From assembly GCA_000004985.1 (NCBI GenBank), contig GG738873.1: a stretch of DNA of 64,000 bases; one strand, given 5' to 3'. A model generated the notes under the pieces. That model did no database searches. It had not been told where the DNA came from and saw nothing but the letters and a program-made list of their open reading frames with translations. This document shows positions 23,601 to 47,288 of this stretch, one piece after another. The first letter of the stretch is position 1. The number at the start of each line of letters is the position of its first letter. Origin of the DNA: Naegleria gruberi (lineage: Eukaryota). Both the position numbers and the translations under genes were made by a program.

Positions 23601-23701
23601 ACTATGAAAAATTTATAGTAAGCGGAAATATACAACCTACAAAAAGCTACACACACACATTGCAATTTAGACCGCAAACCAGCGTTGAGGGTCTTCATCA
23701 T
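20653..23701 (-). CDS. Secreted RCC1-repeat + Kelch-repeat protein, family member 3. Exons (minus strand): 23701..23222, 23181..20653.
   Basis: Exon 1 encodes MMKTLNAGL..., the hydrophobic stretch FFIVIICFTLSV and a helical stalk, ending ...NMIN. It is followed by a 40-nt intron gtaagt...taaag. Exon 2 encodes NFTEAIYGEELLF...VRVRNRIVAGANHVLVLMPNGKLYSTG. RCC1 blades include WAWGANDQGQIGD and VAIGDNTYGQLGTGD. Kelch blades include YVYLFGGVVDD, YVYIFGGIIS and YVYLFGGSST. There is an extra Cys-rich C-terminal tail. The start codon is uncertain; an alternative GTG lies at 23725. Confidence 0.75.
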
Positions 23702-24077
23702 TCGTTTTTTTTCTGAGTTGTGCACCGCAAATCACTGTAATTTCTGTGTTAAGGCTGTATTCACAGTAAGACTTTCAAAAACCTTAACTAGAAGTTATTT
23801 GGAGAATATTAGAAGAAGATTGTGCATAATGTATCTCCCAAATGTGCTCAACATTTTTTTTGGTTTCAAGCCAATCATAAGGGACGATTGAGCAGCAATA
23901 AACTTTTCATTTCTGCACGAAAATGAGATGATAATTGCCTACAGATTTATTAATCAAGATCTGTTTCTAAGTTGAATAGTCCACAATAAAATTCAAAACA
24001 TTTCAAAGAATAAAGTCCCTATCATTTTCATTATTCTCATTCAATACTCTATATTATCATTAAACTACTAGTACAAT

Positions 24078-26846: not shown

Positions 26847-27018
26847 TTTGTGATGTAGCGGGAGATGTGATGGGTGTTGTTTTTTTAAAAGTAGTTGCAG
26901 TTTGCTGCTGTAAGCACTCGCCCAAATCAGCTTAAATACAGCTGTGTACAGTACAGTCGTAATGAAATTACCACTACGAATTATTTTATCGCTTAATACA
27001 GCAGAAAAAAACATCACA

Positions 27019-29799
27019 ATGAAAATCAAGCCATCCCCAAACACGCACATCAACAAACGGGTGGTTTTTTGCGTCCTCCTCGCTTTGCTAGGACTTGGTA
27101 AGTAGTGTGGAGGAATAATATGTTGACACGTTTAAAGTATTTGTAGTGGTCAAGGCTCAATCAGAACAATCTTTCAGTGAATATGTACTTTCCTTAATGT
27201 TCATGATTCAAAAAAGACAAAGTTTGATGGGAATTGAAACAGATTATTTAAGTGAAGCTGACAAAATTATCTACAAGGAGAAAATAATTTATAATACAAA
27301 ATATGCAATGGAAAGGTCTCTAGCCTCTATTAACAAGCTTGGTGTTAAAGAACAAACATATACCATACTTCTCTCAGCCAAACAAAACGAAGCAGCAGCC
27401 GCTTGGGACTCTCTTGTTGAAGTTAACAGTTATATCAATGTTACTAAGCATGCTGTTTCAGTTGCCTACTCAACCATTGATTCAATCAATGAGGTATGTT
27501 TTTTTACAATTTTTGTTGCTGAACCAGTTAGAAATTATCGAATGTACTTCTAAGCTACCACCATTGGCAAAAAACTGACCTCGATTTATTGCCAGCAAAC
27601 ATGACTCTCAATACTACAGTTGGTTATCTCCCAAATCATGTAATGTATTTCCCAGTTATGAGAATTAGAAATAGAATTTCTGCTGGATTAAATCATGGTT
27701 TGTTCCTTGGCCCTGGTGGTAATTTGTATTCTTGGGGTGTTGATATGGGTGGTTCTTTGGGAAGATCTGTTAACACACCAATGCCAAGTTTGGATTTGCC
27801 TGTAGAATTGAAGAACGTTACCATTCTTCAGTTCACTAACTCTTACTATGGAAATCTGTTGCTAGCTGATGATGCCGTCTATTCATGGGGAAAGAATGAC
27901 TATGGAGTTGATGCTGATGGTACAACTGTGAATCATTACCAACCAAGGAAGGTCTTTTCATGGGATTTACAAGGTCCTAAAGGAATCGCTCAGATTGCTT
28001 CTGGCCCATATAACTTTTATGCTATTGACGAAAATGGTAAACTCTATTCATGGGGAAAGAATGATTTTGGCCAACTTGGCGATAGAACTCCAATTGACAA
28101 ATGGAGACCTGTGGACGTTTTTATGAAGGGTGCTTTGCTTAATCAAACAGTTACCAGAGTTTGTGGTGGTTTGACTCATACTCTTGTCCTTGCCAACAAT
28201 GGAATGCTTTACTCTTTTGGTGATAACTCTAAAGGACAACTTGGTATCGGAGTTAGTTCCTCAGTTATTGCAAAGAAATGGGAACCTGTCCTCATCAATT
28301 TCCCATTCAATGACACAATTGCAGATATTCAATGTGGTGATAACCACAACCTGGTGCTCTTGACTGGAGGTGCCATGTATGCTTGGGGTCTTAACGACTA
28401 TGGGCAACTTGGAGATAATACCACAACAACAAGAACAAAACCAACCAAAGTCAACACACTCTCAGCTATTGGTACAAGAAAAGTTGTCAAGATTGAATCA
28501 AGACTCAACGAGAATTTTGCCTTCTTGGAAAATGGAGCCATGGTTTCATGGGGTCAAAATGATTATTCTCAATTAGGTCATTCCAAAATAGCAATTATAG
28601 GCAATATTGCCACCACCTTTATAAATGTTCCGGTAGAGTTTAGCTTACCCAATGGTTATATGCCTTCTGAAATAGCAATCATGAATGGATCAACTGTAAT
28701 TCTTGGTGCAAATGGCACCCTTTATGGTGCTGGATTTTCTTCAGAAAGTACCAGAAAACTGTTGAACATCACCACTTCCCAAACTAAGTTTACCCAGTGT
28801 TACACCTTCCCACCTATATACCCAGTTATGGAAAGAAGACATTATCCATATATCCAACTCAACGAAAAGAGCTATGCATTTATTGGATCCAAGTACTTTT
28901 CTTACCCTGATAATGGGTTTGATGGATACGTGAGGAATAACACCTCTCCAGAATTGTGGTCAATGATTGATTATCAAAATACAACATCACAGATGTTCCC
29001 TGGTTCCATTTACAATACTCATATTTTGAGAACTAACCAACATGTTTACTTCTATGGTGGTTTTGTTAATGGATCAATTTCAAACCTTATTTACAGAGCT
29101 CCAGTGGATAATATTGAAAATGGATGGGAAATTGTTAAGCCAACGCTCCCATTCCCAGTTTCAAACGGTATGTCCATTTTATTGGATGACTTTTTCTACA
29201 TATTTGGTGGCTTGACTTGGTTTAATAGCACAGACAAAGGATTCGTATCAATTGGTGTTTCATCAAGTATTTTGAGATGTCATGTTTCCAGTCCAACCCA
29301 ATGGGAAATAATGAGTGGTGGTGGGTTGCCAAGAGGTGTCTATAGTGGCAATATTGCAAGAATTGGAGATTTCGTCTATATTTTGGGTGGGCGAGTTAAC
29401 ACGGGTGATGCGTTTGCTGACATCTTCAGAGCTCCTTATTTGAATATTAGTCAATGGGAAAATACTTACTCAGTGCTTCCATTCCCTTTATCTGATAGCC
29501 CAATGATAATTACCAATAGTAGTATCTACCTCATGGGAGGATATTTGTCTGAGTACTCTCCAAATATTATTGGTACATACTATCCTCATATTATTACAGC
29601 TCCTCTAAGTGATCCAGTTGGTTCATGGTCTGTTACTGGAGACAAGCTCCCAACTAATCCAGCTTTTCAATCTGTTACTTCGCCAGTAGTTGTTGGATCG
29701 AATGTATATTTATACGGTAATGATGCCTCAAAGATAACAGAGACAAACATCAGAAGTACCACTGTCAGCTCATTCATTAAGATTCCTCTATTGGTTTAA
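27019..29799 (+). CDS. Secreted RCC1-repeat + Kelch-repeat protein, family member 5. Exons: 27019..27097, 27147..27493, 27532..29799.
   Basis: Exon 1 encodes MKIKPSPNTHINKRVVFCVLLALLGLG followed by gtaagt. The signal ends ...VVKA|QSEQ. The intron 27494-27531 is gtatgt...cagttag and is phase 0. Exon 3 reads KLSNVLLSYHHWQKTDLDLLPANMTLNTTVGYLPNH.... RCC1 blades include YSWGKNDYGVDADG and YSWGKNDFGQLGD. Kelch blades include VYFYGGFVNG, FFYIFGGLTW, VYILGGRVN and IYLMGGYLS. Confidence 0.8.
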
Positions 29800-29990
29800 T
29801 AAACAACCTTGTATAATAGTTATTTATTTTCTAAACATATCTCTTTAAAAAATTAGTTAACCTTATTCAACATTCAAACAAAAAAAATTGAGGTAAAAAA
29901 CCGTTTTAACATTTTGAACACTGTACCGTACAAAATTACAGCCATTGGCTGTAAAACACTGTATAAGGCTTTAAAAAAACATAAAAAAAA

Positions 29991-32751
29991 ATGATCTGGA
30001 GCAATACTCATGTAGAGGTTAGTCCAAAGAGCATTGGGCTTGCCGTGGTATTGTTATTTGTATCAATATCTTTTATTTGTAAGTTTCTCCAAGTAATAAT
30101 TGAAGCATATAGTCCATATAGGTGTTACTTCAAGTGCTCAAACAACCCAATACAATAGCACATTAACTTCAGAATTGTTTTACAAACTGTCATTTTACAG
30201 AGAAAGACGAGATAGTTTTTACCAGATTTACACAGACTACGTTCGTCAAAATCAAGAAATAGAAGAATCCAGAATTAAATTGAAAATTAATATTACAAAA
30301 GAGGCTGTAGAAGCTTCTTTTTATGAAATTACAAAATTAAGAATTCCAGTTGAACAATACTATCAAATGCTGAATAATAAGAATATACAATACGCAAACC
30401 TAGAAGAGGTTCAGAAGGAGCTTGATGACTTGATCACATTGACTGATCTTGGTTTCCTACACACCCAATCCACCCTAGATGATGTAGAAAAAGTAAGTCC
30501 TTCAGTTATTGGAAATGCTTATCGGTAATAGTCTGCTTCTAACATTTTGTACAATGAAGAAAAATGGCAATTGGCCAAAACAAGGAAGATAGTTTCCTCA
30601 ATGAACTTTACTACGACTGTTGGATTTCTTCCTAGTCATGCTAGATCTCACAAAATACCAAGAATTAGAAATAGAGTGTCTGCAGGAAAAAATCATGGTA
30701 TTCTTCTTCATTATAATGGACTACTCTATTCTTGGGGCGCTGACAATGGTGGTGCTTTAGGTAGACCAAATAGTGCAGGTGTCTCATCTTTTACTCTCTC
30801 TACCCCTGTTGAATTACCAAAGAATATTTCCATTCTTCAATTTGTTAGCTCAAACTATGCCAATTTGGTTCTTGCTGGAGATGCAGTTTATTCTTGGGGC
30901 AGAAATGAATACGGAGTTGTTGGTGATGGTACTTTTGGTGGAAATAAGCCACCATACAAGTTATTCTCTTGGGATTTGCAAGGTCCAAAAAGAATTGAGC
31001 AAATTGGAGCTGGAGGCTACACTTTTTATGTAATTGATGAAAATGGAAAAGCATATGCTTGGGGCAGAAACAATAGAGGCCAACTTGGAGACAAAACAAC
31101 CATTGACAAGCCAAGACCAGTTGACGTCTACATGAAAGGCATTTTACTCAATCAAACAGTCATTAGGGTTTGTGGTGGAGAAAGTCACACTTTGTTGTTG
31201 ACTAGTAATAATGAATTAGCGGCTATGGGTGACAACACTTATGGGCAATTAGGTGTGGGTACTTCTGGTGGATATAAAATGGAACCAACAAGAGTCAACA
31301 TCAAATTTAATGGTACTATTATGGACATACAGTGTGGTGAAAATTATAACCTTGTCTTAACTTCCAAAGGGTTGGTATACGGTTGGGGAAGGAACGATGT
31401 TGGTCAACTTGGAAGTGGAGACAAGCTAGACAAGTTGGAACCTACTCTTATTTCCTACCTTAAAAACAGCACAGTAGTCAAGATTTATGCCAGATTTTCG
31501 ACCTCATTTGCTCTTACCAATGAAAGTTTCTTATATGCTTGGGGTAATAACAATCAATACCAATTGGGTGCTAGTTCAGCCACCCTTTTTACAGTACCTC
31601 AAAATATAACACTCCCAGAATATGTGACTGTTGTTGACTTGGCTGTCATGCAAGGAACAACTGTATTTTTAGGAAATAATGGTACTTATTACGGTAGTGG
31701 TGGATCAACTAATGGAGAACTGCTCCGTATTTCATCACAACAACCAGCCTTCGACTGGATTTATAATGGATTGAGTTTTTATGGGTTTGCAATGGAAAGA
31801 AGAAGATATCCATATTTTGAAGTGGATGATATTGCCTACCAGTTTGTAGGGGACAATTTTGCAATCTTTCCAGATAATGGTTTTTACCTTTATAAGAGAA
31901 ATATTGCAGATCCAACAATGGGTTCGATTGTAGAATACAGAAACAATACTGGCAAATTCTTCCAAGGAACAATTTACAATTCTCATATGCTTAGACTAGG
32001 AGAATATTTCTACCTGTACGGAGGGGTGGTAAATAACACTATCTCTAATGCTATCCATAGATGCAAAACATCTGATCTGGAAAGTGGATGGGAGCTTACT
32101 AGATTCAAACTTCCTTATAATGTATCAGCTGGTCAATCATTACTGGTAGATGACTTTTTCTATATTTTTGGTGGTCTTGTTAGTCTAAGTGATGACTCTG
32201 ATAGCCCAAAGTTAAGTCTCAACGTTACTGACATGATTTTGAGATTCCACATCTCTAATCCCTTCACTCCTGAAATACTATCACAAAGATTACCACTAGG
32301 TGTTTATAGTGGTCAAATTGCTAGAGTTAAGGATTATTTGTACATATTTGGGGGAAGAACTCAAGATCCAAATGCACCATACAGCGATATCTTGAAAGCG
32401 TCCTATTTCAAACCTACCGTATTTGAAAACTCTTACTCTGTTTTGCCATACCAAGTTACAGATGGTTCGTTAATAGTTACAGAAAACTTTGTTGTTATAT
32501 TTGGTGGCTTTTACAGTGGTCTTTACCCATACAATGCAGGAAGATTCAACTATGAAATTGTATCAACCCCATCTGATGAGCCTGTTGGTTCTTGGATGGT
32601 GACTGATTATAAGATTCCAGGATTAATGAGGGCGACCCCTTCAATCATGGGTTCAACACTTTCTCTGTTCGGAGAGGATGTCAGAATGGTCAACACATTC
32701 CCTCTCTCCAACAGAACTTTCACCATGTTTAACTGCACATTCTTGTTGTAA
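29991..32751 (+). CDS. Secreted RCC1-repeat + Kelch-repeat protein, family member 6. Exons: 29991..30078, 30123..30492, 30532..32751. The first acceptor is ambiguous by 9 nt.
   Basis: Exon 1 encodes MIWSNTHVEVSPKSIGLAVVLLFVSISFI followed by gtaagt. The intron 30493-30531 is gtaagt...aatag and is phase 0. Exon 3 reads SASNILYNEEKWQ...TTVGFLPSH.... RCC1 blades include YSWGADNGGALGR, YSWGRNEYGVVGDG and YAWGRNNRGQLGD. Kelch blades include YFYLYGGVVNN, FFYIFGGLVS, YLYIFGGRTQ and VVIFGGFYS. Confidence 0.8.
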
Positions 32752-34836: not shown

Positions 34837-35341
34837 TCTTGTAAAATACTTGTAAATAATAAATTAAAATAATATATCAAATTGTTTAAAATGGTACCAT
34901 TTTTTCATTGAGGAAAGCTCGCTTCTTCTAATGAATGTTTCTCATGGAATAGATAATTATTTGGTAGATAATGGATGAATGACATGATGAAAATCTGATA
35001 ACAAATATGATGTTTATCAAATAGTACCTCTTTTAATATTCAATGTTCATCATCTTTGGATATCTTTGTTCTATTTCACCCATAATTCGCCAGCCCGCTA
35101 ACAGTTTTCACAAATCTGCCACCCATGTAATGGCACTCCATCCTTCAGGTGGATTTCTTCTCATTATTCAGTTCTTCTTTCTTGGTTCATACTTCAGGTG
35201 GTAAATCTTCTTTCTCCTCCTTTAATACTTTTTTTAACCAATAAAAACGAAAACAATGAGCAAGTACGCCCTTAATGATTGTGTTATAGTCTGTCTAACA
35301 AACCAATCAACAGAACTTTCAAAAATATTTCAAAAATATTG

Positions 35342-35935
35342 GATCAACATCAGGTACATCATGCCTCTGTTGATTCTTGGAGTAGTTTCACATCTATTAA
35401 CTCCAAGAATTTCACCACATCATCTCATCATCATTTAAATAGTAGTATTAATAGTAATTTTTGGAATTTAATTGTTCATCATGATTTGGAAATAATTTTA
35501 TTATTCGGAAACATTCAAGTTGGTACATCATCATCGGAACAACTACCAACCATCATCATTGTTATTTATCATCATTACAATAGTAATATTTGTGGAAATA
35601 AATCTGATAATAGTAATATTTTAGTGAAATTCAATATTTTTCACTAAAATCATCATCACTACCAGATTTATATGATAATTTAGAAAACTTTCAATCTAGT
35701 ATTGTTCAGCATGGTCGATATATATTAGGTAAAATTACTTCCGAACATTTCCCTATTGGTTATCATAATGTTAGGTACATGTATATATTTCAACACCATA
35801 TCTCAACCTGTACTTCACCAACTTGAAAAATGTCTTTCATCACTACTATTCAAATACATAATAAACAATATATTTATTATCAGATTTTCCTAGTTTTGTG
35901 TTTTTACCAACTTCGGGTATTCATAGTCACCAATC
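35342..35935. repeat. Dispersed repeat copy D1, about 600 bp, a direct copy of D2 at 40966-41560.
   Basis: It can be aligned by eye to 40966-41560 at roughly 65-70% identity in the same orientation. Example: catcatctcatcatcatttaaatagtagtattaatagtaattttt in D1 against catctctacatcatctatataatagtagtaatagtgatttttt in D2. The internal ORF 35279-35647 is H/S/N low-complexity and not credible as coding. Confidence 0.55.
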
Positions 35936-37204
35936 ATTATTCATGCCAAAAGTACACAGTCAATCTTCTTGGAACATTAATAAACTTTTATTAGTACTAT
36001 TGCAGATGTACAATATCAATTATTTCGTATTGTTTCGTTGAAATCATGAAGATCTTGATTTTTCTGTTTTTAATTAAATTTCACATCACATACACCATAT
36101 TTGTTGATAGTTACATATTCGCATTACCAAACCGAATTTATTTAGTACGCATAAATTTTATTCAATTTTATTGGTAAAATTATGCGAATTATTACGAATA
36201 AAAATACTATTTATTATTGTATTTTTAAATTAATTAACTGAAAATTATTGCCAATATTTATGGGTAATAATTCATGCAGAATGAAAATTGGTTGAGAGCA
36301 ATAAGACCTGGAAATCTGATCACACTGCACACACTATTAATCTTTGAAAGAAGAAGTGGCAACTGAGTGAATAAATAATTTGAACATAATGATTCGTAAC
36401 ACAACTCTCCAAGCACAAAAATTTCATCACAACAAACAACAGTATCCCTAATTGAGATATCTTCCCAATAAATCTATCGAATTGAATATACATTCCAACC
36501 TTAAGTGAGGATTTTCTAGCATAAAAAGTGCACAATCTTCAAAAATGTGTTGCCCAATGATAATTCGGAAATTGGCCATTTTCTTTTACAAAACAATACG
36601 GATTGAAATTTTGTAAATTGGATCAAAAGTTGAAAATAGATTCTTCTTTCTACAAAGGAGGTTTTTATTGTAAATTAAAAAGCTTTTTTCCATTTGGAAG
36701 AGTATACTTTGTTGATATTTCAATTAAATCATCCATTGCTTACTTTTAAATCTCTCTTCTTCCCAAGATTGTTCGTTTACACCTTTCCTTGCAATTCTAT
36801 TTTGTTTAGAATCTGCAATTTTAGGTAATTCAGGTAATTTCTCAACAATATCTTTCATTTCTGAATGCTCTCTCCTTTTAAATGAGTGTACACTCGCTTC
36901 AGGGCATTTAACAAGGTATTCATCAAATATTTTTGAAAATTAAGGTTGATTTTCTTTGTTTTGTATATTCTTTTTTTCAAAATATTCTTTTAGTGTTAAG
37001 CACATGTGTTTTGTGATTGCTTGATCATTCGTTCAAAATTAATCTCAAATGAAATTGCTGCAAATCCATCTTCTTGTTTGTATTCAAAATTAATCATTGC
37101 TTTTTTCCTTTCGAGTAATATGTATAGTAACAAGGAATTTCGCTAAAAGTTGATTCAGGGACCATGTATTTCAACATATCTCTAAGGAAATCGTACCCAC
37201 TTTT

Positions 37205-37570
37205 ACAAAATATCAAACACCAAATCATATCTGTGGCAATGTTTTTCCCACTTTTTTCTAGTGCTCCCTCTTTAAAAGAGGATATGCTTGGTTAAAGTCA
37301 CCACCACAAAATTCAATATTCGATATTAAGTAGTTGAGCGAAAAATCACTTTTCCCAAAAAGGTATATGATTTCATAACTCACTAATTATCTCAATTAAA
37401 ACAAAAGATTAAATATTCAAAAATGACCAGGATATAGTATACATGATATGAAACCATCCATGCAAAATTCAAGATTTATACCATGAATCAAACTACATAT
37501 TTCCTTTTAAAGAGGGTGCACTAGAAAAAAGCGGGAAGATATGGCACATCCGATTCTTTGTGAAATATTT
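37205..37570. repeat. Inverted duplication (foldback). Arms of about 75 bp at 37205-37281 and 37503-37570, about 75-80% identical, with a spacer of about 220 bp.
   Basis: cttttttctagtgctccctctttaaaagagg (37251-37281) is the reverse complement of ccttttaaagagggtgcactagaaaaaag (37503-37531). Both arms carry short coding-like fragments in opposite senses (GSTRKKWEKHCHRYDLVFDIL and GCTRKKREDMAHPILCEIF). Confidence 0.5.
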
Positions 37571-38111
37571 CCGAAACTGGAATTATTGAAAAGGGAGTTT
37601 CAATTGTATTAGCAATCAAATTAACTTTCCTGTCTTTTCACCTTCAAACATTGCTTTGAACAACTTACTGTAATTTTCAACAAGGAAAAAATTCATCAAG
37701 TTTGATAAAAAATAGAAAAGTTTCATCTACAATATTCTTGCATCTGCTCACACAATTCCCACCACAAACATGTTGATGGTAATATCACATCGTTGTTTCT
37801 TGTCCCTTTCTGGTTGGAGGGCCGTCAATTGCAGGAATTGTTGATTATTATTGGATGGTATTATTGTTGTTGGTTTAACACTTAGTGGAGAGGCTACAAC
37901 AAATTTAATCATCCCAAAGTGACTCTACTCTTCCAATCTATTCAAGTTTCAACATTGTGTGTTGTGGATATATTACATTATTGAGATACACACATGTATT
38001 ATTGAGATGATTAGTTGAGTGGATGATATTTCTTCAGTTAATTCTGGAATGAAGAAGGGAAAAACACTGGAAATCATTTTGGATAAAGTTATGTGATTTT
38101 AAGAGAATAGT

Positions 38112-38282
38112 AACATAGCAAGACTAGCTGGTGGAGAATTTTTAAGCTTACCATCCCAGCGCTGGGATGGTCAAAACCAGCTAGACAACATCAAAAACTC
38201 GCGACTAAAAATAATCAGCTGGTAAAAACTGACTTCGCAGATTTCAAGTAGCCAAAAAACAATTTTCCAGTCTTGCTATGTT
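38112..38282. repeat. Small foldback structure: 16-20-bp inverted arms flanking a perfect 20-bp palindrome. It lies about 400 bp upstream of the recombinase ORF.
   Basis: The left arm is aacatagcaagactagctgg (38112-38131). The right arm is ccagtcttgctatgtt (38267-38282). The central palindrome is ccatcccagcgctgggatgg (38151-38170). ccagctag/cagctgg motifs recur in between. The segment is GC-richer than its flanks. Confidence 0.5.
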
Positions 38283-38670
38283 GAGGATAGGGATGAACCT
38301 TTTAATATTTGTCATAAGTGATTGAACAGTATTGTTAATTTGAGTTGATTAATTTTCCAATTAATTGTGTCAAGAGTTGATTTTTTGAAATAAGCTCTTG
38401 CAAAGTTAACATGTATATTCTAGAGAATTCCCATTGGTGGCAGTAACAAATTTTTTTGTCAATACACAAATTCAAAGTTTAAAAAATAATTGTGAAAAAG
38501 ATAAAATGTTATTTTTCTTTACTGTGCAACAGTGGCAAAACATTTCCACCACGAGTGAGGTACGAACGAGCTGGTGGATGATTTTTGCGCGATTTGTTGC
38601 GAAGTAAGAACAGCACTTTTTCTCACGAACAAATATTCCACTGATCTCTGGATATTATTCATTCAAAAAA

Positions 38671-39942
38671 ATGTCTCAAGAGGTTGATGATCTTGCCAGC
38701 GACCTGTTGCTAGAAGAGTTTGATAGTCTCACTGTAACAGGGGAGCAGTCTTTCAACTTTGTTCTTGGAGAAAATAGTATTCAAGCAGTCAAAACAAGGA
38801 AAAACTACAACAATCACAATATGGCACTCAAGGATTTTGCTCTTGAAAATCCAGATGTAAATCTGCAAGATTTACAGGTTGGTTGGTTGAAAGATTATTT
38901 TCAATTCCTCCATCAGAATAAGAAAGTAACTGGTCAAACATTATGGCAATATCACTCCAGTCTTGCAAAGCTGTATGCATGTAATTACAATCTTTCGATT
39001 AAGAATGTTGCCAATTATTCAGTTCTGTCTAGTTTCATCAAAGAATTAGAGAAAAACAGTGTAGACAGCACCGCAGGTGCTGAAGATATTCCATTAAGCA
39101 CAGTAATTGGTGTTCTCTCTCAATACCCAGAAGATGGATCAAATATTATGAAAAAGGCTTTTTTTGTATTCACCACAATAAGCTGTAAGAGATGTGATGA
39201 TGCTCATTGTTTACAATTTCATCATTTAACATTCAAAGAAGATTCAATCGATTTTGATATCTCACAAACTGCAACCAATCCAACTTCCAAAAAAACCAAG
39301 ACAGATGCCTGCACTGGTTGTATTGTCAAAAGCAATGTTCTAGAAATATGTCCCTTTAGAATTTTTAAGAAATACACTGATCAAATTGAAGACAAGAAAG
39401 GTCCTGTATTTAGGAGATGGGTTGGTAAAAAGGGTGGTGGTTATTTCGGAAAACAAGCAGTTGGTATTAACACCATGTACAGTTTCTTCCAAGATATTTT
39501 GAAAAGTGTTATTGAAGTATGTCCAGAGGACATACAAATTGAAGAAAGAACTGGTGCTAGAGCACCAGAACACCTTCGTTCCAACAAGACATCCACAAAA
39601 ATTGGTCTTGCTCGTTATACAGGACACACAGGAAGAAAAACAGCTGGTACCATCATTTCCACCATTGCTGCAATGACTGATCTTGAAAGAAAGAAATATG
39701 GTGATTGGAAGAATATGAAAACGGTTGAAACCTACAGCAACAACAATCCTGAAACCAGAAAAATTGCTAGCAAGAAGGTTGTTGATCATTTATCAGATGC
39801 TTTTAAAAGATCCAATGATGAAGAAGAAGAAAGTCAATATGCTCCTGTAGCAAAAAAGAGCAAGTCTTCCGAATCAAGCTTCAGTAATGATGGAAAGACA
39901 TTCGTCTTCAAAAACTGCTCAAATATCACAATAAACTTCTAA
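38671..39942 (+). CDS. Crypton-like tyrosine recombinase (YR). Intact 423-aa intronless ORF.
   Basis: The C-terminal catalytic region reads ...RYTGHTGRKTAGTIISTIAAMTDLERKKYGDWKNMKTVETY. This matches the YR HxxR box (GH[ST]xRxxA) and the GRW-x(8)-Y tyrosine box. A Cys/His cluster lies upstream (CKRCDDAHCLQFHH). No RT, RNase H or integrase is nearby. Confidence 0.65.
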   Translation: MSQEVDDLASDLLLEEFDSLTVTGEQSFNFVLGENSIQAVKTRKNYNNHNMALKDFALENPDVNLQDLQVGWLKDYFQFLHQNKKVTGQTLWQYHSSLAKLYACNYNLSIKNVANYSVLSSFIKELEKNSVDSTAGAEDIPLSTVIGVLSQYPEDGSNIMKKAFFVFTTISCKRCDDAHCLQFHHLTFKEDSIDFDISQTATNPTSKKTKTDACTGCIVKSNVLEICPFRIFKKYTDQIEDKKGPVFRRWVGKKGGGYFGKQAVGINTMYSFFQDILKSVIEVCPEDIQIEERTGARAPEHLRSNKTSTKIGLARYTGHTGRKTAGTIISTIAAMTDLERKKYGDWKNMKTVETYSNNNPETRKIASKKVVDHLSDAFKRSNDEEEESQYAPVAKKSKSSESSFSNDGKTFVFKNCSNITINF

Positions 39943-40965
39943 CATTTTTATTTCCAGTAAAAAGTGGTGTTATGCACTCATTTATGCCAGCACAGTTGGA
40001 ACTCGGAACAAGAAGAAATAAGCAAGGACGCTGTTATGCACTCACTGTTCGGAGAGGATTATGTTAACTCGCGAGCAGTCCATAACAGGTCCTGGAGTGA
40101 GAAAAAACAATTTAATTTAATCGTAAGTTAGATTTTAATAGCTAATAGTTTGTTTAATTTTAATGTTCAGATTGATGAAATAGTGTTGAACTGTTGCCGA
40201 GCTTATAAGAAGAAGAATTTGAAAGAATTGACGGTGTGCCGGTAAATCCTGTCTAACGGGATCCGTCAGATGTAATAAGCTGTCAAATGGGACAGTCAGC
40301 AGTAAGAGGGAGCAAGAATGGAATTAAGGGAAATACTAAAAATTCTCAATTGTAGAATAATCACTAAAATCAAAGATTACACTCTTTCTGTCTCAAATTT
40401 AAGAATGACATGATATAATTTGACTAAATTGATTAAAACACTGTTGGGGAACTACCCTTCTTTTTTAGAGAAGTTTCCTTCTCAAACAATTCAGGTAAAT
40501 AGTAAACTGTGGAAAGTTTAAATTTGATTTTTTATTGAAAATGAAAAATATGGATTAATTGATATGAGTGTGATTACTATAATGTGCAAGATGTTGAAAA
40601 AGTTGGTTATCTTTGAAATTCAATTTAAAAGTGCACTAAGAAAGCAAATGCTGAACTAGATGAGTTGATACAAATAAACGGTGAGACGGGCAACGGGATG
40701 AACGGGATTCAGGCGTTTCTTATTCTAAACGGGAGATTCTCTCCGCTTAATACTACAAGGTGGCAATTCAAATATGGAGAGAGAGCTTAGTAACATTAAT
40801 AAAATGAATGAGACATAATTACTTTTTGAATTTTCCTTTTATATTTGAAACTTTGACTCTGCTTACTTTCAATTGTTTGTTTAATATGGCTTGCTTGACT
40901 GAAGAATAAGCAATAACTAACACATCCAAACATCACCAGACTGGATTTTGAAGAAAAAATATTTC

Positions 40966-41560
40966 AACATCTAGTACGTGATGTACTTTGATGATTTACG
41001 GAGTGGTTTCACATCTTTATACCACAATAATTTCAGCTCGTCATCTCTACATCATCTATATAATAGTAGTAATAGTGATTTTTTATTGGAAAATTATCAT
41101 CATGAAATTAGAAATTATTTTTCATCATGGAAAAATTCATGTTGGTGATACCATCATCTGATCATTTACCAACCATCATCAATGATATTTTCCATCGATA
41201 TAATAATAGTATTTGTGGAAATTAATTTTCAGTAATTTAATTTTAGTTGAAAATCACCATTTTCACTAAATTCATCATCAGTGTGGAATCTACTGTACAA
41301 ATTGGAAATCTGTCAACATAGTATTGTTCGGAATGGTCAATAGTATCAGAAAAGATTTTGTCCGATGACTTTTGGTCAAGTTATGATAGGGAAAGGTATG
41401 TGTGAAATTTGAAAATACACATTATACTACCCATCATGTACTTCACCAAATCAAAAAGTTTCTTCTAGTAGTACTATTTAAATTGATAATAAACATCATA
41501 TTTATTATAATTTATTCCTTTTCTTTTGTGTTGGTCAAGTTCCGGTTGGGTTGACTAAGA
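40966..41560. repeat. Dispersed repeat copy D2, the direct partner of D1 at 35342-35935.
   Basis: See D1 (35342-35935). Together they bracket about 5.6 kb containing the YR ORF and the two foldback structures. Confidence 0.55.
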
Positions 41561-42071: not shown

Positions 42072-42716
42072 TTAATATAATTTAGACTTCAAATGTAACA
42101 TTTCCATCATCTTTTGCAAGCCTTTGGATTGAATTTCTTGTAGACGAGGATAGTTACGAGAGTTGTGAATGACAGATTCAAATCGAGCCATCAAAACTTG
42201 AACTCTATTCAACAACGCCTCATTGGAAGAGTAATGACGAAGTGTTTTGGTTGAGACAAAACTTATGACATCTCCATCGGATAGTCTATCACCAACTTCG
42301 TAGTTACGTCTAATCTCCTTGATAGTAGTTAGACCCCAATGTTTACCAGTGAAATCCTCATCAGCGGATTCCTCATCAAGGTCTTCATCAAGTTGATTAG
42401 CTTGTTGCAGAATAGGAGGAACAGCTTCAAGATGCTTTATTCTCTCACCCAAAGAAGTGATGGCGTTGAAAATAGCATCAAGGTTCTTTTCAGAACCAGC
42501 TTGGTTGTTATCCAAGGTTTTGCTTGTTGGGTCAACCACAGAGGGGAGTGAAGCTGAGCTACCATTGTCAGTTACTAGGATGTAACCTGACTTGTAGGTA
42601 GAAGTTGAAGATTTGCTTACTGAAACTCTTTGACGAATGTTGGAGATATTCGCTTTGCTTGGTGTTTGAACCATTTCAATATACTTAATTTTTTTGAGCA
42701 TAAAATTATTTATCAA
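42072..42716 (-). CDS. Hypothetical acidic protein of 214 aa. Its 5' end and start codon lie inside repeat A.
   Basis: It has an ORF with an internal Met MLKKIKYIE. A truncated copy of the first approximately 130 bp (promoter plus the first 9 codons) recurs at 45255-45385. No recognisable domain. Confidence 0.35.
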   Translation of the reverse strand: MINNFMLKKIKYIEMVQTPSKANISNIRQRVSVSKSSTSTYKSGYILVTDNGSSASLPSVVDPTSKTLDNNQAGSEKNLDAIFNAITSLGERIKHLEAVPPILQQANQLDEDLDEESADEDFTGKHWGLTTIKEIRRNYEVGDRLSDGDVISFVSTKTLRHYSSNEALLNRVQVLMARFESVIHNSRNYPRLQEIQSKGLQKMMEMLHLKSKLY

Positions 42717-42776
42717 CTCAATTTTATTGTTTACAATTTGTCGAAATGCTAACGTTGCATCGTTCCTCGCAACTCT
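42650..42776. repeat. Repeat A (A1), about 90% identical to 45255-45385 (A2) in the same orientation.
   Basis: cttaatttttttgagcataaaattatttatcaactcaattttattgtttacaatttgtcgaaatgctaacgttgcatcgttcctcgcaact occurs in both copies with a few mismatches. Confidence 0.7.
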
Positions 42777-43826
42777 ACATTATTGAATCTTCTGTAGCCT
42801 TGTTGATTGTTGGATTGATAAGTATTACCTTGTCCTTGGTTGAAGTTGTTGTAGTTGTAGCCAGCTTGTCTAGTATTGTATCTAGTGAGGAACTTACGAA
42901 AATTAAGGGTTCTGCTAGCCCATTTGCTGACTTTTTCAATAGTTTCTGTGTTTGAATGGGCATTAAAAATGACTTTGAAGCAGCTGAAAACTTCTCTAAC
43001 AGCTACAAATCAGGAGGTTCACTTAACCAAATCACCTCCAAACAACAAGAGAAGACGATTAAATCTGCTGAAAAAGTAAAAACAGCAGAAGATTAGATTT
43101 AACTCAGAAATATTCTAAATAAATTCAAATCCTTGAAGAATAAGTGGTAAATCAAGAATATCACTCTCTCAAACGCTTGCAGATTTCAATGACTCACCAA
43201 ACATTCTTTGGTAAGAGTCGATGATGTGGTTTTTAAACCAATCATCTAGTTCATCAGCAACTCTTGCACTTTTACCAGAAACCTCTTCAGATGGGTTGGA
43301 CTCAAACAATTCCATCGAAGAAGCGAGAGTAGAAGTACTTTGTGAACCAACCTTGGCGTTGTTTGAGTCTTTGTCAGGTGATATCTTTTGCTGATTGTTC
43401 TTTTTCGTGTCTTGAAGGCATAGCAGAACTATTAGATGAATTTGAGGTGGAAGGAGTTAGAATAATAACTCGTTTCTCGCTACCTGCAGAAGGTGAGCTA
43501 AGGTCTTTCGTTTTCTTGTTGTTCTTTGGTGTAGTTGGTGTTTTGTAATTCTAGAGTGAAACAATTTGTTGAACGTGTAGAATGTATGTGTTCTGAATGA
43601 TTATAATAAATTGAATGTTATTTGCTTAAATTTATTGAGTTTCATGTTCAAAAAATTTATCTAAACTAAATGTCTTCAAGAAACATTTTAACTTCTGCTT
43701 CTAAAGCAAGAAATGATAGGTCCCACCCTGTTCTTATCGAAGTTTACTGAGATAAAGTAGTGTTTCTTGAAAACAACAATTGAATAAACTAATAATAGAA
43801 AGTATGCTCAAAAAAATTGTCATACT

Positions 43827-44954
43827 ATGGTCGCTAAGAAGCCTCAAGATATTGACTCCTCTTTATCTGATGAAGATCTCCCAGCAGTTGAAGTAGAATA
43901 CCTCATAACACTAGTGAAAGCAAGAAAACAACAAGCTGCTAAGAAGCTTAGAAAGTTAAAGGCCATGTCACCTGTAGCTAATAGAAATAAGCGCAAACAA
44001 TTTACTTCAGTTTCATCATCTAACAGTGCCTTAGATGATGGTATTTCAACTGTTGTTTCCAGTTCGTTGTTAAACAATTCAACATTGTTGGATAGTTCTT
44101 CAACTGCACCCTCTTCGTCAAACAATTCGTCTTCTTCCAATTCAGGTAGAGATAGTTTTACCAGTAGTTCATCTGAACATGATATCATGGTGATCAAAGC
44201 CCAAATGCAAGAAATGATTGGAGTTTTGAGAACCGTAACAGGAAATATCTCTGAACTTACTAAGAAAGTTCAGGAGAGAGAAGAAGAATCAGATGATGAT
44301 TTTGTTAATCCAGAAGCTATATCTTTAGAAGTTTGGTTACGTCAAACTTATAGAGACCTTAGAAGTTCTTACAATGTTCCTTCATCTATTGGAGATGATT
44401 TATTACTTTCTGCAGTATCCTCCGAGATACTTAAAGACCGTAAACAAGAGGAGACCAAGAGAAGAATTCAATATTTGCTCCTTAAATACAAGGATGTGAT
44501 TTCCAAGTTTGCCCCAGACATTAGATTGGATGAGATTAACAGTATTGGTTATTCTAAACTAGTAGAGTTAACTCAAATCAAAATTGAATTGTTGGAATAT
44601 GCATTGAATTCTCCACTTGATTTTACAGTCATGACAGAGATTACAGAACTTTGTAGAATGATTTGCAAAGTTGAAGCCCTCTTCCTTAAAGAAGGTTTAC
44701 AAGTTTCCACTTTCGATGTTGGTAGAGAATTCCTTAACAGATACATTTCTACTAATAGTTTCGAAACTGCTGCCGAAAGTGAACTTCATAATATTAGAAC
44801 AACATATCATTACTACAAAGCAACCAAGCAGCAACAAGGTCCAAAGGGAATTACCAAGAAGTATTCTAAGAAGAAACCGTTTCAAAAGAAAAACAATAAG
44901 GGTCAAGGAAACGATGGTAAATTCCAAGGAAAAGATAAGGATAAGTCAGAATGA
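43827..44954 (+). CDS. Hypothetical 375-aa protein with a Ser-rich low-complexity N-terminal half, a helical C-terminal half and a basic K-rich tail. It may be a TE-associated (Gag-like?) ORF.
   Basis: A single ORF located between the split direct repeats A1 and B1. No recognisable catalytic motif. Confidence 0.3.
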   Translation: MVAKKPQDIDSSLSDEDLPAVEVEYLITLVKARKQQAAKKLRKLKAMSPVANRNKRKQFTSVSSSNSALDDGISTVVSSSLLNNSTLLDSSSTAPSSSNNSSSSNSGRDSFTSSSSEHDIMVIKAQMQEMIGVLRTVTGNISELTKKVQEREEESDDDFVNPEAISLEVWLRQTYRDLRSSYNVPSSIGDDLLLSAVSSEILKDRKQEETKRRIQYLLLKYKDVISKFAPDIRLDEINSIGYSKLVELTQIKIELLEYALNSPLDFTVMTEITELCRMICKVEALFLKEGLQVSTFDVGREFLNRYISTNSFETAAESELHNIRTTYHYYKATKQQQGPKGITKKYSKKKPFQKKNNKGQGNDGKFQGKDKDKSE

Positions 44955-45126: not shown

Positions 45127-45441
45127 TATTATTTCTCCAAATAAAACAATAAAGAATTTCGTTGATAAACCAATGGGTAGAAGCTCACTCAACATATTCT
45201 TCATCCAAAGGATGAGGTATGTTGCTCGGAAATGCTGCCTTTTAGGTCATTGACTTTATTCAGCAATGATTTTGCTTGGTGTGTTTACCATGTTTCTTAA
45301 TTTTTTTGAGCATAAAAATTATTTATCAACTCAATTTTATTGTTTACAATTTGTCGAAATACTAACGTTGCATCGTTCCTCGCAACTAGCCATATTTCTC
45401 CAAATAAAACAATAAAGAATTTCGTTGATAAACCAATGGGT
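45127..45441. repeat. Split direct-repeat block: B1 (45127-45177), A2 (45255-45385) and B2 (45391-45441).
   Basis: atatttctccaaataaaacaataaagaatttcgttgataaaccaatgggt occurs twice, at 45127-45177 and 45391-45441, flanking the A-repeat copy. This gives the order A1 ... B1 A2 B2 known from Ngaro/PAT-like DIRS elements. Confidence 0.5.
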
Positions 45442-45644
45442 TAGTCCAGAGAAAATAGAGTGTTAGTGAAATTCTTGCCAGCTAGGCCTTCAGATCTAAG
45501 GTAAGGAAATAAACTTTTTTCCTTTTTATGTCTTGCACCGACCATTAGATCAGTTGTAGACATACCCTTTCTGAGTCCTTCTGTGATAGCACCTATTCTA
45601 AGGCTGTGACCTGAGACTGTTACGCCTTGATCTACTATACCCAC
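45441..45644 (-). pseudogene. Tyrosine-recombinase C-terminal fragment (Crypton/DIRS-type YR), degraded.
   Basis: SGHSLRIGAITEGLRKGMSTTDLMVGARHKKEKSLFPYL contains the YR HxxR box (GHSLRIGAIT) and a degenerate GRW...Y tyrosine box. Only 67 codons are open and there is no N-terminal domain. It lies directly beside B2. Confidence 0.6.
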
Positions 45645-45780
45645 TGCATTCTTTAGTATTTTTGAAATACCATCTGAATCTTAGTAGTACCGTTTCAGTT
45701 TTACCTAGTTGTAATAAACACCGGAAATTTATTTATGTTTTTAACTATAAAAGCTGAAAGTAGTCAAATGTTGATATTTG

Positions 45781-46366: not shown

Positions 46367-47288
46367 CTAATATGACAAACATATCCCACCAACGCATGTA
46401 TGAAAATTCGTATTTTTNNNNNNNNNNNNNNNNNNNNNNNNNNNNNNNNNNNNNNNNNNNNNNNNNNTATTATATGTGAAATTACCAATTGTAATATTAT
46501 TGCTTGTAAAGTTACTAATTGTAAAGTTACTAATTGTAATGTTATCACTCGTAAGGTTACGGATTGTTAAATTAGTATATGTGAAATTACCAATTGTAAT
46601 GTTATCACTTGTAAAGTTACTATTTGTAAAGTTACCAATTGTAATATTATCACTCGTAAGGTTAGTGTTTGTAAAGTTACTGCTTGTTGAATTAGTATAT
46701 GTGTAATTACCAATTGTAATATTATCACTTGTAAAGTTACTATTTGTAAAGTTACTGATCGTTAAATTAGTATATGTGTAATTACCACTTGTGGTATTCT
46801 CATATGTAAAATTATAATAGGTAAAATTGTTGAGTGTCAAATTCGGTATTTCCGTAATTCTCATCACCTCGTTTTCTGGATAATTTGCATCATTTTGGCA
46901 ATTTTGTCCCGTAATAGAATTTCTAAAACATTTACAAAAATCAGGCTTGGTACAATTACCATTTCCACTGCAAACAAGTGGATCTTCTGATTTAACACCA
47001 AAACAAATTGGTAAAGAACAATTTGATCCATAATATCCTTCTCTGCAAGTGGTTACATTTAAGAGACCTGTTGCATTCTTCTTGGAGCAAAGATACAAAT
47101 TATCACCTGTTGGGTTTGTACAATCAATTTCAAGATCAAGAGTTCCATTAATCTTTGTATTATTACATTTACCTTCAGGATTGGTACATGTCGCCATACT
47201 AACATTTGTTTGACACTGTGTGCCAATAAAACCAACTTTGCAAGAACATTGATTTGGTTTCTCACAATAACCATTTCCTGAACAAACC
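46367..47288 (-). CDS. Second paralog of the giant EGF-like/LamG extracellular protein, C-terminal part only. Its 5' end is in the N gap.
   Basis: The ORF ends at the stop at 46367. It contains EGF motifs (REGYYGSNCSLPICFGVKSEDPLVCSGNGNCTKPDFCKC). Positions 46958-47060 match window positions 1-103. The C-terminal approximately 130 aa are N-x-T pentapeptide repeats. The sequence continues open to the gap at 47289. Confidence 0.75.
46468..46860. repeat. 15-nt tandem repeat of at least 23 units with an approximately 90-nt higher-order period. It encodes N-[F/I/L]-T-x-x pentapeptide glycosylation-sequon repeats on the minus strand and is interrupted by the 50-N gap at 46418-46467.
   Basis: Units include tgtaaagttactaat, tgtaatgttatcact and cgtaaggttacggat. 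The translation reads ...NFTSDNITIGNFTNSNFTSDNITIGNFTYTNLT.... Confidence 0.8.

What the first reader, a model, noticed from the sequence alone, without database searches (positions are those of the whole stretch)
35342..41560. Intact Crypton-like tyrosine recombinase ORF inside a 6-kb unit bounded by diverged direct repeats
ORF 38671-39942 encodes a 423-aa protein with the YR catalytic signature (GHTGRKTAG...GDWKNMKTVETY). It has no RT, RNase H or integrase and no introns. These features are the hallmark of Cryptons or of a domesticated Crypton-derived gene. It is bracketed by two approximately 600-bp direct repeats about 5.6 kb apart, about 65-70% identical (35342-35935 and 40966-41560). Two foldback structures lie upstream of it, at 37205-37570 and 38112-38282. 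Cryptons classically lack terminal repeats. This unit is therefore either an unusual Crypton variant with long direct repeats, an old composite insertion, or a recombinase domesticated as a host gene. The ORF is fully open, which argues for recent activity or selection.
Basis: partly seen in the sequence, partly recalled or inferred. Interest (0 to 1): 0.6.

Follow-up and report, generated by a model that had tools for sequence, protein, structure and literature searches.

The report
Intact Crypton-type recombinase gene in Naegleria
The amoeba Naegleria gruberi carries one intact gene for a Cre-like DNA-cutting-and-rejoining enzyme whose nearest described relatives are insect "Crypton" jumping genes; it sits in a patch of transposon debris, and the long repeats around it are real but not shown to be its ends.

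Summary
ORF 38671-39942 encodes a 423-aa, two-domain tyrosine recombinase (YR) with a Cre fold. All six catalytic residues are present (R174, K210, H319, R322, W346, Y355). It carries no RT, RNase H or DDE domain and has no intron.

The window is the end of a Naegleria gruberi scaffold. The protein belongs to a small protist clade: at least 4 diverged copies in Acrasis kona, plus environmental sequences and, more distantly, Blastocystis. I found no description of this clade in the searchable literature. Its nearest described relatives are the insect CryptonI recombinases.

The two ~590-bp direct repeats are genuine (71% identity, E 1e-69) and non-coding. Nothing ties them to the recombinase:
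- CryptonI elements are reported to have no terminal repeats.
- There is no split-repeat structure.
- If the repeats had started identical, a neutral ORF would have been destroyed (0 of 4000 simulations stayed open).
- The surrounding DNA is a transposon-rich island, with DIRS/PAT-type retrotransposon relics directly to the right.

Probes from that retroelement find nothing inside the unit, so it is not a decayed copy. The genome itself could not be searched, so copy number, boundaries and mobility remain untested.

Verdict: a new member of a known kind, of moderate interest.

The parts
38671..39942 (+). Tyrosine recombinase gene: 423 aa, intronless, stop codon included
   Evidence: ORF. Identical to the NCBI entry 'predicted protein [Naegleria gruberi]'. 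The family profile matches Cre at E 1.4e-16 over both domains. AF2 model pLDDT 85.7. Foldseek top 30 hits are Cre/Tre.
38785..39090 (+). N-terminal core-binding (SAM-like) helical domain, about aa 39-140
   Evidence: Pfam PF13102 Phage_int_SAM_5 at aa 39-102, E 6.8e-7. Helices H40-129 in the AF2 model. Aligned to the Cre N-terminal domain.
39094..39750 (+). Catalytic domain, about aa 142-360. Catalytic codons: R174 (39190-39192), K210 (39298-39300), H319 (39625-39627), R322 (39634-39636), W346 (39706-39708), Y355 (39733-39735)
   Evidence: Positions. These columns are conserved across 34 relatives (R 27/27, H 33/33 and Y 33/33 of the sequences that cover them). They align with Cre R173/K201/H289/R292/W315/Y324.
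39907..39939 (+). Conserved C-terminal tail FKNCSNITINF (motif F-x-N-C-x(1-8)-[IV]-x-[IVF]-[NQK])
   Evidence: Alignment A2. A strict pattern finds it in 16 of 34 relatives, and about 25 of 34 by eye, including the CryptonI-like distant branch. Low pLDDT in the model. Function is inferred, not tested.
35332..35918 (.). Direct repeat, copy 1 (non-coding)
   Evidence: blastn against copy 2: 71% over 610 columns, E 1e-69. No ORF in any frame. No codon periodicity in the substitutions. GC 27.6%.
40955..41546 (.). Direct repeat, copy 2 (non-coding)
   Evidence: Similarity between the two sides of the unit is confined to these blocks.
34989..35017 (-). Third, short inverted fragment of the same repeat. 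It matches 35861-35889 and 41489-41517.
   Evidence: the repeat finder I3 (29 nt, 90%) and I5 (83%). blastn E 5e-5.
37245..37537 (.). Foldback 1: 42-nt terminal inverted repeats around 209 nt; looks like a MITE insertion
   Evidence: I1, 88% complementary. DNA fold z = -5.8, 0 of 100 shuffles as stable. No other copy in the 47 kb.
38112..38282 (.). Foldback 2, with a perfect 22-nt palindrome at 38150-38171
   Evidence: DNA fold z = -4.4. The palindrome is unique in the window, with 0 expected by chance. No partner downstream of the ORF.
42072..42784 (-). Context, not part of the unit: 5' leader plus truncated gag-like ORF1 of a DIRS/PAT-type YR retrotransposon
   Evidence: N. gruberi paralogues at 96%, 96% and 77% identity on other scaffolds. 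77.5% nt identity to L012, where the homologue is followed by RT (RVT_1, 2.5e-25), a Dam-like MT and a DIRS-type YR.
45261..45680 (-). Context: two further relics of the same retroelement. The YR C-terminus is at 45522-45680 and the leader plus gag start is at 45261-45387.
   Evidence: tblastn 87% aa identity, E 4e-24; blastn 91%.

Best explanation
ORF 38671-39942 is the recombinase gene of a Crypton-type (YR-only) DNA element. It belongs to a protist clade that sits next to the insect CryptonI group.

Shown: the protein has the two-domain Cre architecture and a complete catalytic set, so it should cut and rejoin DNA through a 3'-phosphotyrosine intermediate at Y355.

Inferred, by analogy with the Goodwin/Kojima model for Cryptons: the element would be excised as a circle and re-inserted by recombination at a few bases of microhomology, leaving neither target-site duplications nor long terminal repeats.

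In N. gruberi it is present as a single annotated copy with host-like codon usage. It is lodged in a transposon-rich island at a scaffold end, beside relics of DIRS/PAT-type retrotransposons.

The ~590-bp direct repeats are an old duplicate of non-coding DNA, and the two foldbacks look like MITE insertions. These features share the neighbourhood, but they are most likely not the element's ends or sites. The true boundaries are unknown.
For: Recombinase identity:
- The family profile aligns with Cre at E 1.4e-16 from end to end, with all six catalytic residues aligned.
- 25 of 34 relatives hit PF00589.
- The AF2 model (pLDDT 85.7) matches Cre/Tre at E 5e-9 and target TM-score 0.64-0.70.

Crypton affinity:
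- All six CryptonI references are the top six hits, both for a profile of the close protist clade (39-66 bits) and for the protein alone. PAT/DIRS score 29-39 bits, CryptonA at most 24, CryptonS at most 16 and CryptonF at most 8.5.

YR-only:
- No RT, RH, MT or gag domain appears in the six frames of the interior.
- Naegleria-specific gag, RT and YR probes give no hit within 34.8-42.0 kb.
- The A. kona YR genes also have no RT beside them.

Transposon-like behaviour of the family:
- A. kona has at least 4 mutually diverged copies, one of them truncated, lying among PIF/Harbinger, LINE and OTU-protease sequences.
- All 17 hits with E below 1e-12 were looked up, and none comes from another Naegleria species.

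TE-island context.

Repeats probably not the ends:
- CryptonI elements have no terminal repeats (PMC3212892).
- Repeat divergence against an intact ORF.
- No site pair brackets the ORF.
Against: - Only one copy is visible, and the word-indexed search found no N. gruberi paralogue. A single old copy of a selfish element should decay, yet this one is intact.
- Codon usage is indistinguishable from host genes (RSCU r 0.886 against a host range of 0.87-0.96; GC3 0.30 against 0.29). That also fits a host gene.
- No termini, target site, empty site, circular form or transcript was observed.
- N. gruberi is reported to have only about 0.28% TE content (bioRxiv 10.64898/2026.06.24.734286).
- The assignment to CryptonI rests on HMM scores against OCR-derived partial reference sequences, not on a phylogeny.
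Confidence: 0.55

Rival explanations
1. A host-retained (domesticated) but still catalytic recombinase. The gene descends from a Crypton but is now kept by selection for a cellular task, for example resolving or rearranging a specific DNA substrate. The repeats and foldbacks would be incidental.
For: Single copy. Host-like codon usage and GC3. The ORF is intact although the flanking repeats have drifted to 30% mismatch; if the two are coeval, the ORF must have been under purifying selection (0 of 4000 neutral simulations stayed open; P(no frameshift) 0.0015). The conserved C-terminal tail and N-terminus point to constraint.
Against: All known Crypton domestications cited in PMC3212892 lost the catalytic site, whereas here all six residues are kept. 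No orthologue from another Naegleria species appears among the strong hits. The nearest relative is only 42% identical. The gene lies in a TE island at a scaffold end. The age argument collapses if the repeats have nothing to do with the gene.
Confidence: 0.2
2. One reading: a roughly 6.2-kb Crypton variant whose ends are ~590-bp direct repeats. A cut-and-paste element carries such repeats along without homogenising them, so they could be old and diverged while the ORF stays selected. Recombination between them would excise a 5.6-kb circle.
For: The repeats are genuine, in direct orientation, and bracket the only YR gene, which lies near and reads towards the right-hand repeat. Conserved blocks of 0.75-0.8 identity alternate with weaker ones, as binding-site arrays might. 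Each copy contains a conserved internal inverted repeat (I8 and I2).
Against: No second copy is available to define ends. CryptonI relatives have no terminal repeats, and other Cryptons have only 4-6 bp (PMC3212892). There is no high-identity crossover core. A third, inverted fragment of the repeat lies outside the unit at 34989-35017, which fits an independent dispersed repeat better. The 2.7-kb interior has no conserved content across species. The look-alike flanking repeat in A. kona is a LINE tail. Short contigs of relatives show no long repeats.
Confidence: 0.12
3. A decayed DIRS/PAT/Ngaro-type YR retrotransposon. The direct repeats would be its A1/A2 split repeats, the ORF-less 2.7 kb would be dead gag and RT/RH, and only the YR ORF survives.
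For: N. gruberi has degenerate DIRS1-like copies (PMC3266345), and relics of one lie 0.5 kb to the right. The layout (repeat, about 2.7 kb, YR, repeat) superficially resembles Ngaro/PAT. PAT-type YRs are the next-best scoring reference group.
Against: Pfam finds no RT, RH, MT or gag in six frames. Naegleria-type gag, RT/MT and YR probes detect relics elsewhere at E down to 1e-84 but give nothing below E 1.9 within 34.8-42.0 kb. There are no B1/B2 repeats around copy 2. The protein is only marginally similar to the DIRS-type YR of L012 (E 0.006 over 48 aa) and scores higher with CryptonI. The repeats do not match L012. An intact YR beside a fully erased RT is implausible under neutral decay.
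Confidence: 0.04
4. An integrase acquired from a virus or prokaryote: an integrated virus, virophage or plasmid remnant, or a horizontally transferred phage-type integrase.
For: The fold and Pfam families are those of phage integrases. Relatives hit the PHROG integrase families. One distant relative (P0010) lies on a gene-dense 9-kb metagenome contig of ORFans.
Against: The viral structure library gives only generic matches at 8-16% identity, no better than Cre. P0001 itself hits no PHROG or NCBIfam model. No relative was found in the IMG/VR contigs. The named relatives are eukaryotic: Acrasis, Blastocystis and an ant. Codon usage is host-like. No viral hallmark genes lie nearby.
Confidence: 0.04

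Closest known systems
CryptonI elements of insects (Kojima & Jurka 2011, PMC3212892)
   Same: YR-only coding capacity. The YR domain is the best-scoring reference group (39-66 bits). Shared motifs: 'YTGH-x-x-RR-T/S', 'G-x-WKS/N' and 'E-x-Y'. The distant branch of the family includes an ant protein. No accessory GCR1_C or DUF3504 domain.
   Different: The host is a heterolobosean amoeba, not an insect. The protist clade is only 21-30% identical to the insect-like branch. It is single-copy here, whereas CryptonI families have autonomous and many non-autonomous copies. No element boundaries are known here.
Cre recombinase of phage P1 (for example PDB 1crx, 3crx)
   Same: Two-domain fold over the full length, and an identical catalytic hexad including Trp rather than His at the fifth position.
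   Different: 13-14% sequence identity. A eukaryotic nuclear gene. It has an extra acidic N-terminus and a roughly 65-residue C-terminal extension ending in the conserved NC...IN tail. No lox-like site pair was found.
DIRS/PAT/Ngaro YR retrotransposons, including the Naegleria-type element seen in L012 and as relics in this window
   Same: They encode a YR, are present in the same genome, and lie immediately adjacent. PAT-type YRs are the second-best scoring group.
   Different: Those elements carry gag, RT/RH (and MT) and split or inverted terminal repeats. None of these is present in the unit.
Crypton-derived domesticated genes (DUF3504 genes such as QRICH1, ZMYM2-4 and KCTD1; yeast Gcr1 and Cbf2/Ndc10)
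   Same: Single-copy, host-like genes derived from a Crypton YR. QRICH1 appears as a weak structural hit (rank 48).
   Different: Those genes have lost the catalytic residues and gained other domains (PMC3212892). This protein keeps all six, has no added domain, and does not match DUF3504.

Membership tests
Tyrosine recombinase superfamily (Cre/Int/Xer type) | Catalytic R-K-H-R-[H/W]-Y residues in register in a profile alignment | tested here: met
   R174, K210, H319, R322, W346 and Y355 align to Cre R173, K201, H289, R292, W315 and Y324.
Tyrosine recombinase superfamily (Cre/Int/Xer type) | Two-domain fold: an N-terminal helical core-binding domain plus a C-terminal catalytic domain | tested here: met
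   AF2 pLDDT 85.7 and pTM 0.74. Foldseek matches Cre at E 5e-9 with target TM-score up to 0.70. PF13102 in the N-terminal domain.
Tyrosine recombinase superfamily (Cre/Int/Xer type) | Recombinase activity on DNA | not testable with these tools
   Needs biochemistry.
Crypton DNA transposons | Encodes a YR but no reverse transcriptase, RNase H or DDE transposase | tested here: met
   Pfam on the ORF and on six frames of the interior. Lineage-specific RT, gag and YR probes are negative.
Crypton DNA transposons | The YR groups with Crypton YRs rather than with retroelement or prokaryotic YRs | tested here: met
   CryptonI references are the top six by HMM score. This is score ranking only; no phylogeny was built.
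Crypton DNA transposons | No TIRs or long terminal direct repeats; short (4-6 bp) terminal direct repeats, or none in animal Cryptons | tested here: inconclusive
   The ends are unknown. The ~590-bp direct repeats are present, but it is not shown that they belong to the element.
Crypton DNA transposons | Multiple genomic copies that define boundaries, or evidence of mobility (empty sites, polymorphism, circles) | not testable with these tools
   The N. gruberi genome is not in any searchable collection. Only one annotated protein copy exists. A. kona has at least 4 diverged copies.
CryptonF / CryptonA subgroups | GCR1_C domain (CryptonF) or a DUF3504-type YR domain (CryptonA) | tested here: not met
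   None of the 34 family members hits these Pfam families. Reference scores are at most 8.5 bits (CryptonF) and at most 24 bits (CryptonA).
Ngaro/PAT/VIPER/DIRS YR retrotransposons | RT/RNase H (with or without MT) and gag ORFs alongside the YR | tested here: not met
Ngaro/PAT/VIPER/DIRS YR retrotransposons | Split direct repeats (A1 ... B1-A2-B2), or inverted terminal repeats with an internal complementary region | tested here: not met
   Only the A-like pair exists. No B1/B2 similarity flanks copy 2, and there is no ITR.
Domesticated Crypton-derived genes | Orthologues conserved in synteny across related species under purifying selection | tested here: inconclusive
   None of the 17 strongest hits is from another Naegleria species. 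Whether those proteomes are in the library was not verified. Synteny and dN/dS are not testable here.

The most novel reading that the evidence does not exclude
The gene is an active, host-retained Cre-like recombinase in a genome almost free of transposons. It would be kept by selection to act on a defined cellular DNA substrate. Two candidates are deletion or inversion between the two 590-bp direct repeats that bracket it (a self-excising 5.6-kb cassette), or resolution of multimers of Naegleria's circular extrachromosomal rDNA plasmids, as Cre does for the P1 plasmid. That would be a rare case of a catalytically intact domesticated tyrosine recombinase in a eukaryote.
Probability: 0.08. Interest if true: 0.75.

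Novelty: new member of a known kind. Interest (0 to 1): 0.35.

Why it matters
CryptonI recombinases were described only from insects. I found no paper describing a Crypton-type (YR-only) gene in Heterolobosea.

This gene, its Acrasis kona relatives and about 40 mostly unnamed environmental sequences show that the lineage reaches deep into protists. That points to either an ancient origin or horizontal spread of this small class of DNA transposons.

The protein is compact (423 aa), intronless and catalytically complete, with a Cre-like architecture. If its target sites can be found, it would be a candidate site-specific recombinase of eukaryotic origin.

Because N. gruberi has very few transposons, a single intact copy is also a clean system for asking whether such a gene is selfish or has been co-opted.

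Tried and rejected
1. Single-sequence AlphaFold gave pLDDT 35 and was unusable. I redid it with a 34-sequence alignment.
2. Direct phmmer of the protein against PDB found nothing relevant. The family profile was needed.
3. Repeats as coding sequence or paralogous genes: rejected. There is no ORF, stops occur in all frames, substitutions show no 3-base periodicity, and there is no protein-level similarity beyond the repeats.
4. tRNA or other RNA genes as integration targets: none in the window or in the A. kona loci.
5. Site-like inverted or direct repeats bracketing the ORF: only chance-level AT-rich matches.
6. Exact look-ups of the N. gruberi contig failed twice, so I could not do genome-wide copy counts.
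7. Scans for related loci: IMG/VR negative; the JGI metagenome scan with the single protein negative; the alignments were too diverse for the metagenome pattern search.
8. A. kona L011 looked like an independent case of a YR gene between direct repeats. I rejected it. The three copies share one 3' boundary ('CCCTGTTTT' plus an A-run) and differ in 5' extent, and the longest follows an ORF with a zf-RVT match. They are most likely 5'-truncated LINE tails.
9. Blastocystis and other relatives' contigs showed no comparable long flanking repeats.
10. No interior gene is conserved between the A. kona and N. gruberi units.
11. The profile search with source names was limited by its word index and returned only 3 hits.
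12. The afdb50 fold library was unavailable.

Full report
**Source and observation.** The window is the last 47,288 bases of a Naegleria gruberi scaffold, and the rest is N padding.
- ORF 38671-39942 (+) encodes 423 aa with the quoted motifs.
- The direct repeats align as 35332-35918 against 40955-41546: 71% identity over 610 columns, E 1e-69, about 5.62 kb apart. Identity is 0.6-0.8 inside the block and drops to background at both edges.
- Both foldbacks are significantly more stable than shuffled sequence, with z = -5.8 and -4.4. The second contains a perfect 22-nt palindrome that is unique in the window.

**The protein.**
- Pfam sees only an N-terminal Phage_int_SAM_5 domain.
- A full HMMER scan of 1.84 billion representatives finds just 43 relatives. 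The best is 42% identical over the full length.
- Of 34 aligned relatives, 25 match PF00589.
- A profile of the alignment matches Cre recombinase from end to end at E 1.4e-16. R174, K210, H319, R322, W346 and Y355 fall on Cre R173, K201, H289, R292, W315 and Y324.
- An alignment-based AlphaFold model (pLDDT 85.7) has Cre/Tre as its top 30 PDB matches.

The protein is a complete tyrosine recombinase.

A short C-terminal tail (F-x-NC...I-N) is conserved across the family. By analogy with Cre's C-terminal helix it may mediate contacts between subunits, but that is inference.

**Who the relatives are.** Most are unnamed sequences on short environmental or SRA-assembly contigs. The named ones are eukaryotic:
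- three proteins of Acrasis kona, another heterolobosean;
- one from Blastocystis;
- in the distant branch, an ant protein.

I took reference YR domains from the supplement of Kojima & Jurka (PMC3212892). I scored them with a profile built only from the close protist clade, and with the Naegleria protein alone. In both cases all six CryptonI (insect) sequences rank first, at 39-66 bits. PAT/DIRS YRs follow at 29-39 bits, CryptonA at 24 or less, CryptonS at 16 or less and CryptonF at 8.5 or less. No family member carries GCR1_C or DUF3504. Viral and prokaryotic libraries give only generic integrase matches, and IMG/VR holds no relative.

My literature searches for Crypton or tyrosine recombinases in Naegleria found no description of such a gene.

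**Is the 6-kb unit an element?** Several lines bear on this.
- *The repeats are non-coding.* They have no ORF and their substitutions show no codon periodicity. The similarity between the two sides of the unit does not extend beyond them, even at protein level.
- *The split-direct-repeat pattern of Ngaro/PAT/VIPER elements (A1...B1-A2-B2; PMC13465315) is absent*.
- *No site-like repeat pair brackets the ORF*.
- *The nearest relatives lack terminal repeats.* CryptonI elements are reported to have none, and other Cryptons have only 4-6 bp (PMC3212892).
- *A dating argument.* The repeats differ at 30% of sites (JC distance 0.39) and by 6 indel events in 585 bp. A 1272-bp ORF evolving neutrally for the same time would carry about 11 premature stops (0 of 4000 simulations stayed open) and about 6.5 frameshifting indels. 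So the ORF has been under selection since the repeats formed, or it arrived later, or the repeats never were identical. None of these supports a recently active element bounded by these repeats.
- *A third fragment.* A short inverted piece of the repeat lies outside the unit at 34989-35017, as expected of an independently dispersed sequence.

**A lesson from Acrasis kona.** Its contigs hold at least four mutually diverged YR genes of this family (598, 548 and 509 aa, plus a truncated 280-aa copy), and two of them lie tail to tail. In one locus the YR gene lies between 63-nt direct repeats, and the same sequence recurs upstream of another YR gene. However, the three copies share the same 3' boundary and differ in 5' extent, and the longest follows an ORF with a zf-RVT match. 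They are most likely 5'-truncated LINE tails. The A. kona YR genes lie among PIF/Harbinger, LINE and OTU-protease sequences and have no RT beside them. So the family behaves like a low-copy transposon living in TE-rich DNA, and flanking repeats in such DNA are easily coincidental.

**The neighbourhood in Naegleria.** The ORF just right of repeat 2 (42072-42716, minus strand) belongs to a multi-copy N. gruberi family, with paralogues at 96%, 96% and 77% identity on other scaffolds. On a Naegleria-like ENA contig (L012) its homologue is followed by an RT (RVT_1, 2.5e-25) with a Dam-like methyltransferase, and then by a DIRS-type YR. That makes it the gag-like ORF1 of a DIRS/PAT-type YR retrotransposon, in line with the degenerate DIRS1-like copies reported for N. 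gruberi (PMC3266345).

Relics of this element lie at 42083-42784, 45261-45387 and 45522-45680, and a diverged gag-like ORF lies at 43827-44954. The same probes give no hit better than E 1.9 anywhere in 34.8-42.0 kb, and Pfam finds nothing in six frames of the interior. The unit is therefore not a decayed copy of that retroelement, but it does lie in a transposon island at a scaffold end.

**What remains open.** The gene is single-copy among annotated N. gruberi proteins, and its codon usage matches host genes (RSCU r 0.886; GC3 0.30 against 0.29). That fits either a long-resident low-copy element or a host-retained gene. Three points speak against classical domestication:
- all catalytic residues are kept, unlike the known Crypton-derived genes (PMC3212892);
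- none of the 17 strongest hits comes from another Naegleria species;
- the gene sits in a TE island.

I could not verify that the other Naegleria proteomes are in the library, and the genome itself could not be searched. Copy number, boundaries, polymorphism and expression are therefore untested.

**Verdict.**
- Best explanation (0.55): the recombinase gene of a Crypton-type element from a protist clade adjacent to CryptonI, with unknown boundaries. The repeats and foldbacks are bystanders.
- Rivals: a host-retained active recombinase (0.20); a true 6.2-kb element with long direct terminal repeats (0.12); a decayed YR retroelement (0.04); viral or prokaryotic acquisition (0.04).
- Novelty: a new member of a known kind. 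Interest: moderate (0.35).

Noticed in passing
window 42072-42784(-), 43827-44954(+), 45261-45387(-), 45522-45680(-); locus L012: Relics of a DIRS/PAT-type YR retrotransposon lie just right of the finding. L012, a Naegleria-like ENA contig, shows the layout: gag-like ORF, RT with a Dam-like MT, then a DIRS-type YR. The gag-like ORF has paralogues at 96% and 77% identity on other N. gruberi scaffolds, so at least one family may be young. At 45.3-45.7 kb the YR 3' end abuts a copy of the 5' leader, as expected for a split-direct-repeat or tandem arrangement.
   Followed up: partly
window 20653-32751: Cluster of four large paralogous genes on both strands, each with an RCC1-like beta-propeller plus Kelch repeats (825, 890, 736 and 734 aa).
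   Followed up: no
window 1-1700, 3500-5800 and 46370-47287(-): The ORF at the scaffold end (46367-47197, weak EGF-like match) has relatives at the very start of the window (53% aa over 119 residues, E 2e-32) and several weaker repeats within 1-5.8 kb. This is a repeated cysteine-rich family. An N gap lies at 46418-46467.
   Followed up: no
L003 37-51, 76-90, 1481-1497 (metagenome relative P0045, 31% identical): Palindromic 'GGGAAAC-N-GTTTCCC' sites lie on both sides of the YR ORF: about 250 and 200 bp upstream and 40 bp downstream. They are candidate recombinase-binding sites for that relative. No equivalent was found in Naegleria.
   Followed up: partly
L002 38-55/1550-1567 and 138-155/1614-1631 (closest relative, 42% identical): Two short inverted-repeat pairs (18 nt, at 89% and 100%) flank the ORF in a crossed order. 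One arm ends exactly at the contig end, so it may be a longer repeat that broke the assembly.
   Followed up: no
L009 530-2326(+) and 2588-4234(-) (Acrasis kona): Two full-length, diverged YR genes of this family lie tail to tail, 260 bp apart. They are followed by an 877-aa ORF (weak AAA match) and an OTU-like cysteine protease ORF. The annotated gene models are shorter than the ORFs.
   Followed up: partly
L011 498-636, 4397-4459; L010 6795-6930 (Acrasis kona): A dispersed repeat with a common 3' end ('CCCTGTTTT' plus an A-run) and variable 5' truncation, next to an ORF with a zf-RVT match. It is probably the tail of a LINE family. Rfam and ARAGORN found no RNA gene in it.
   Followed up: partly
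window 39907-39939 and alignment A2: The extreme C-terminal motif F-x-N-C-x(1-8)-[IV]-x-[IVF]-[NQK] is conserved from the Naegleria and Acrasis clade to the CryptonI-like branch, although animal Cryptons are described as lacking a C-terminal domain.
   Followed up: partly
window 35433-35462 / 35826-35855 and 41054-41083 / 41448-41483: Each 590-bp repeat contains a ~30-nt imperfect internal inverted repeat, conserved in both copies (I8 and I2). Its meaning is unknown.
   Followed up: no
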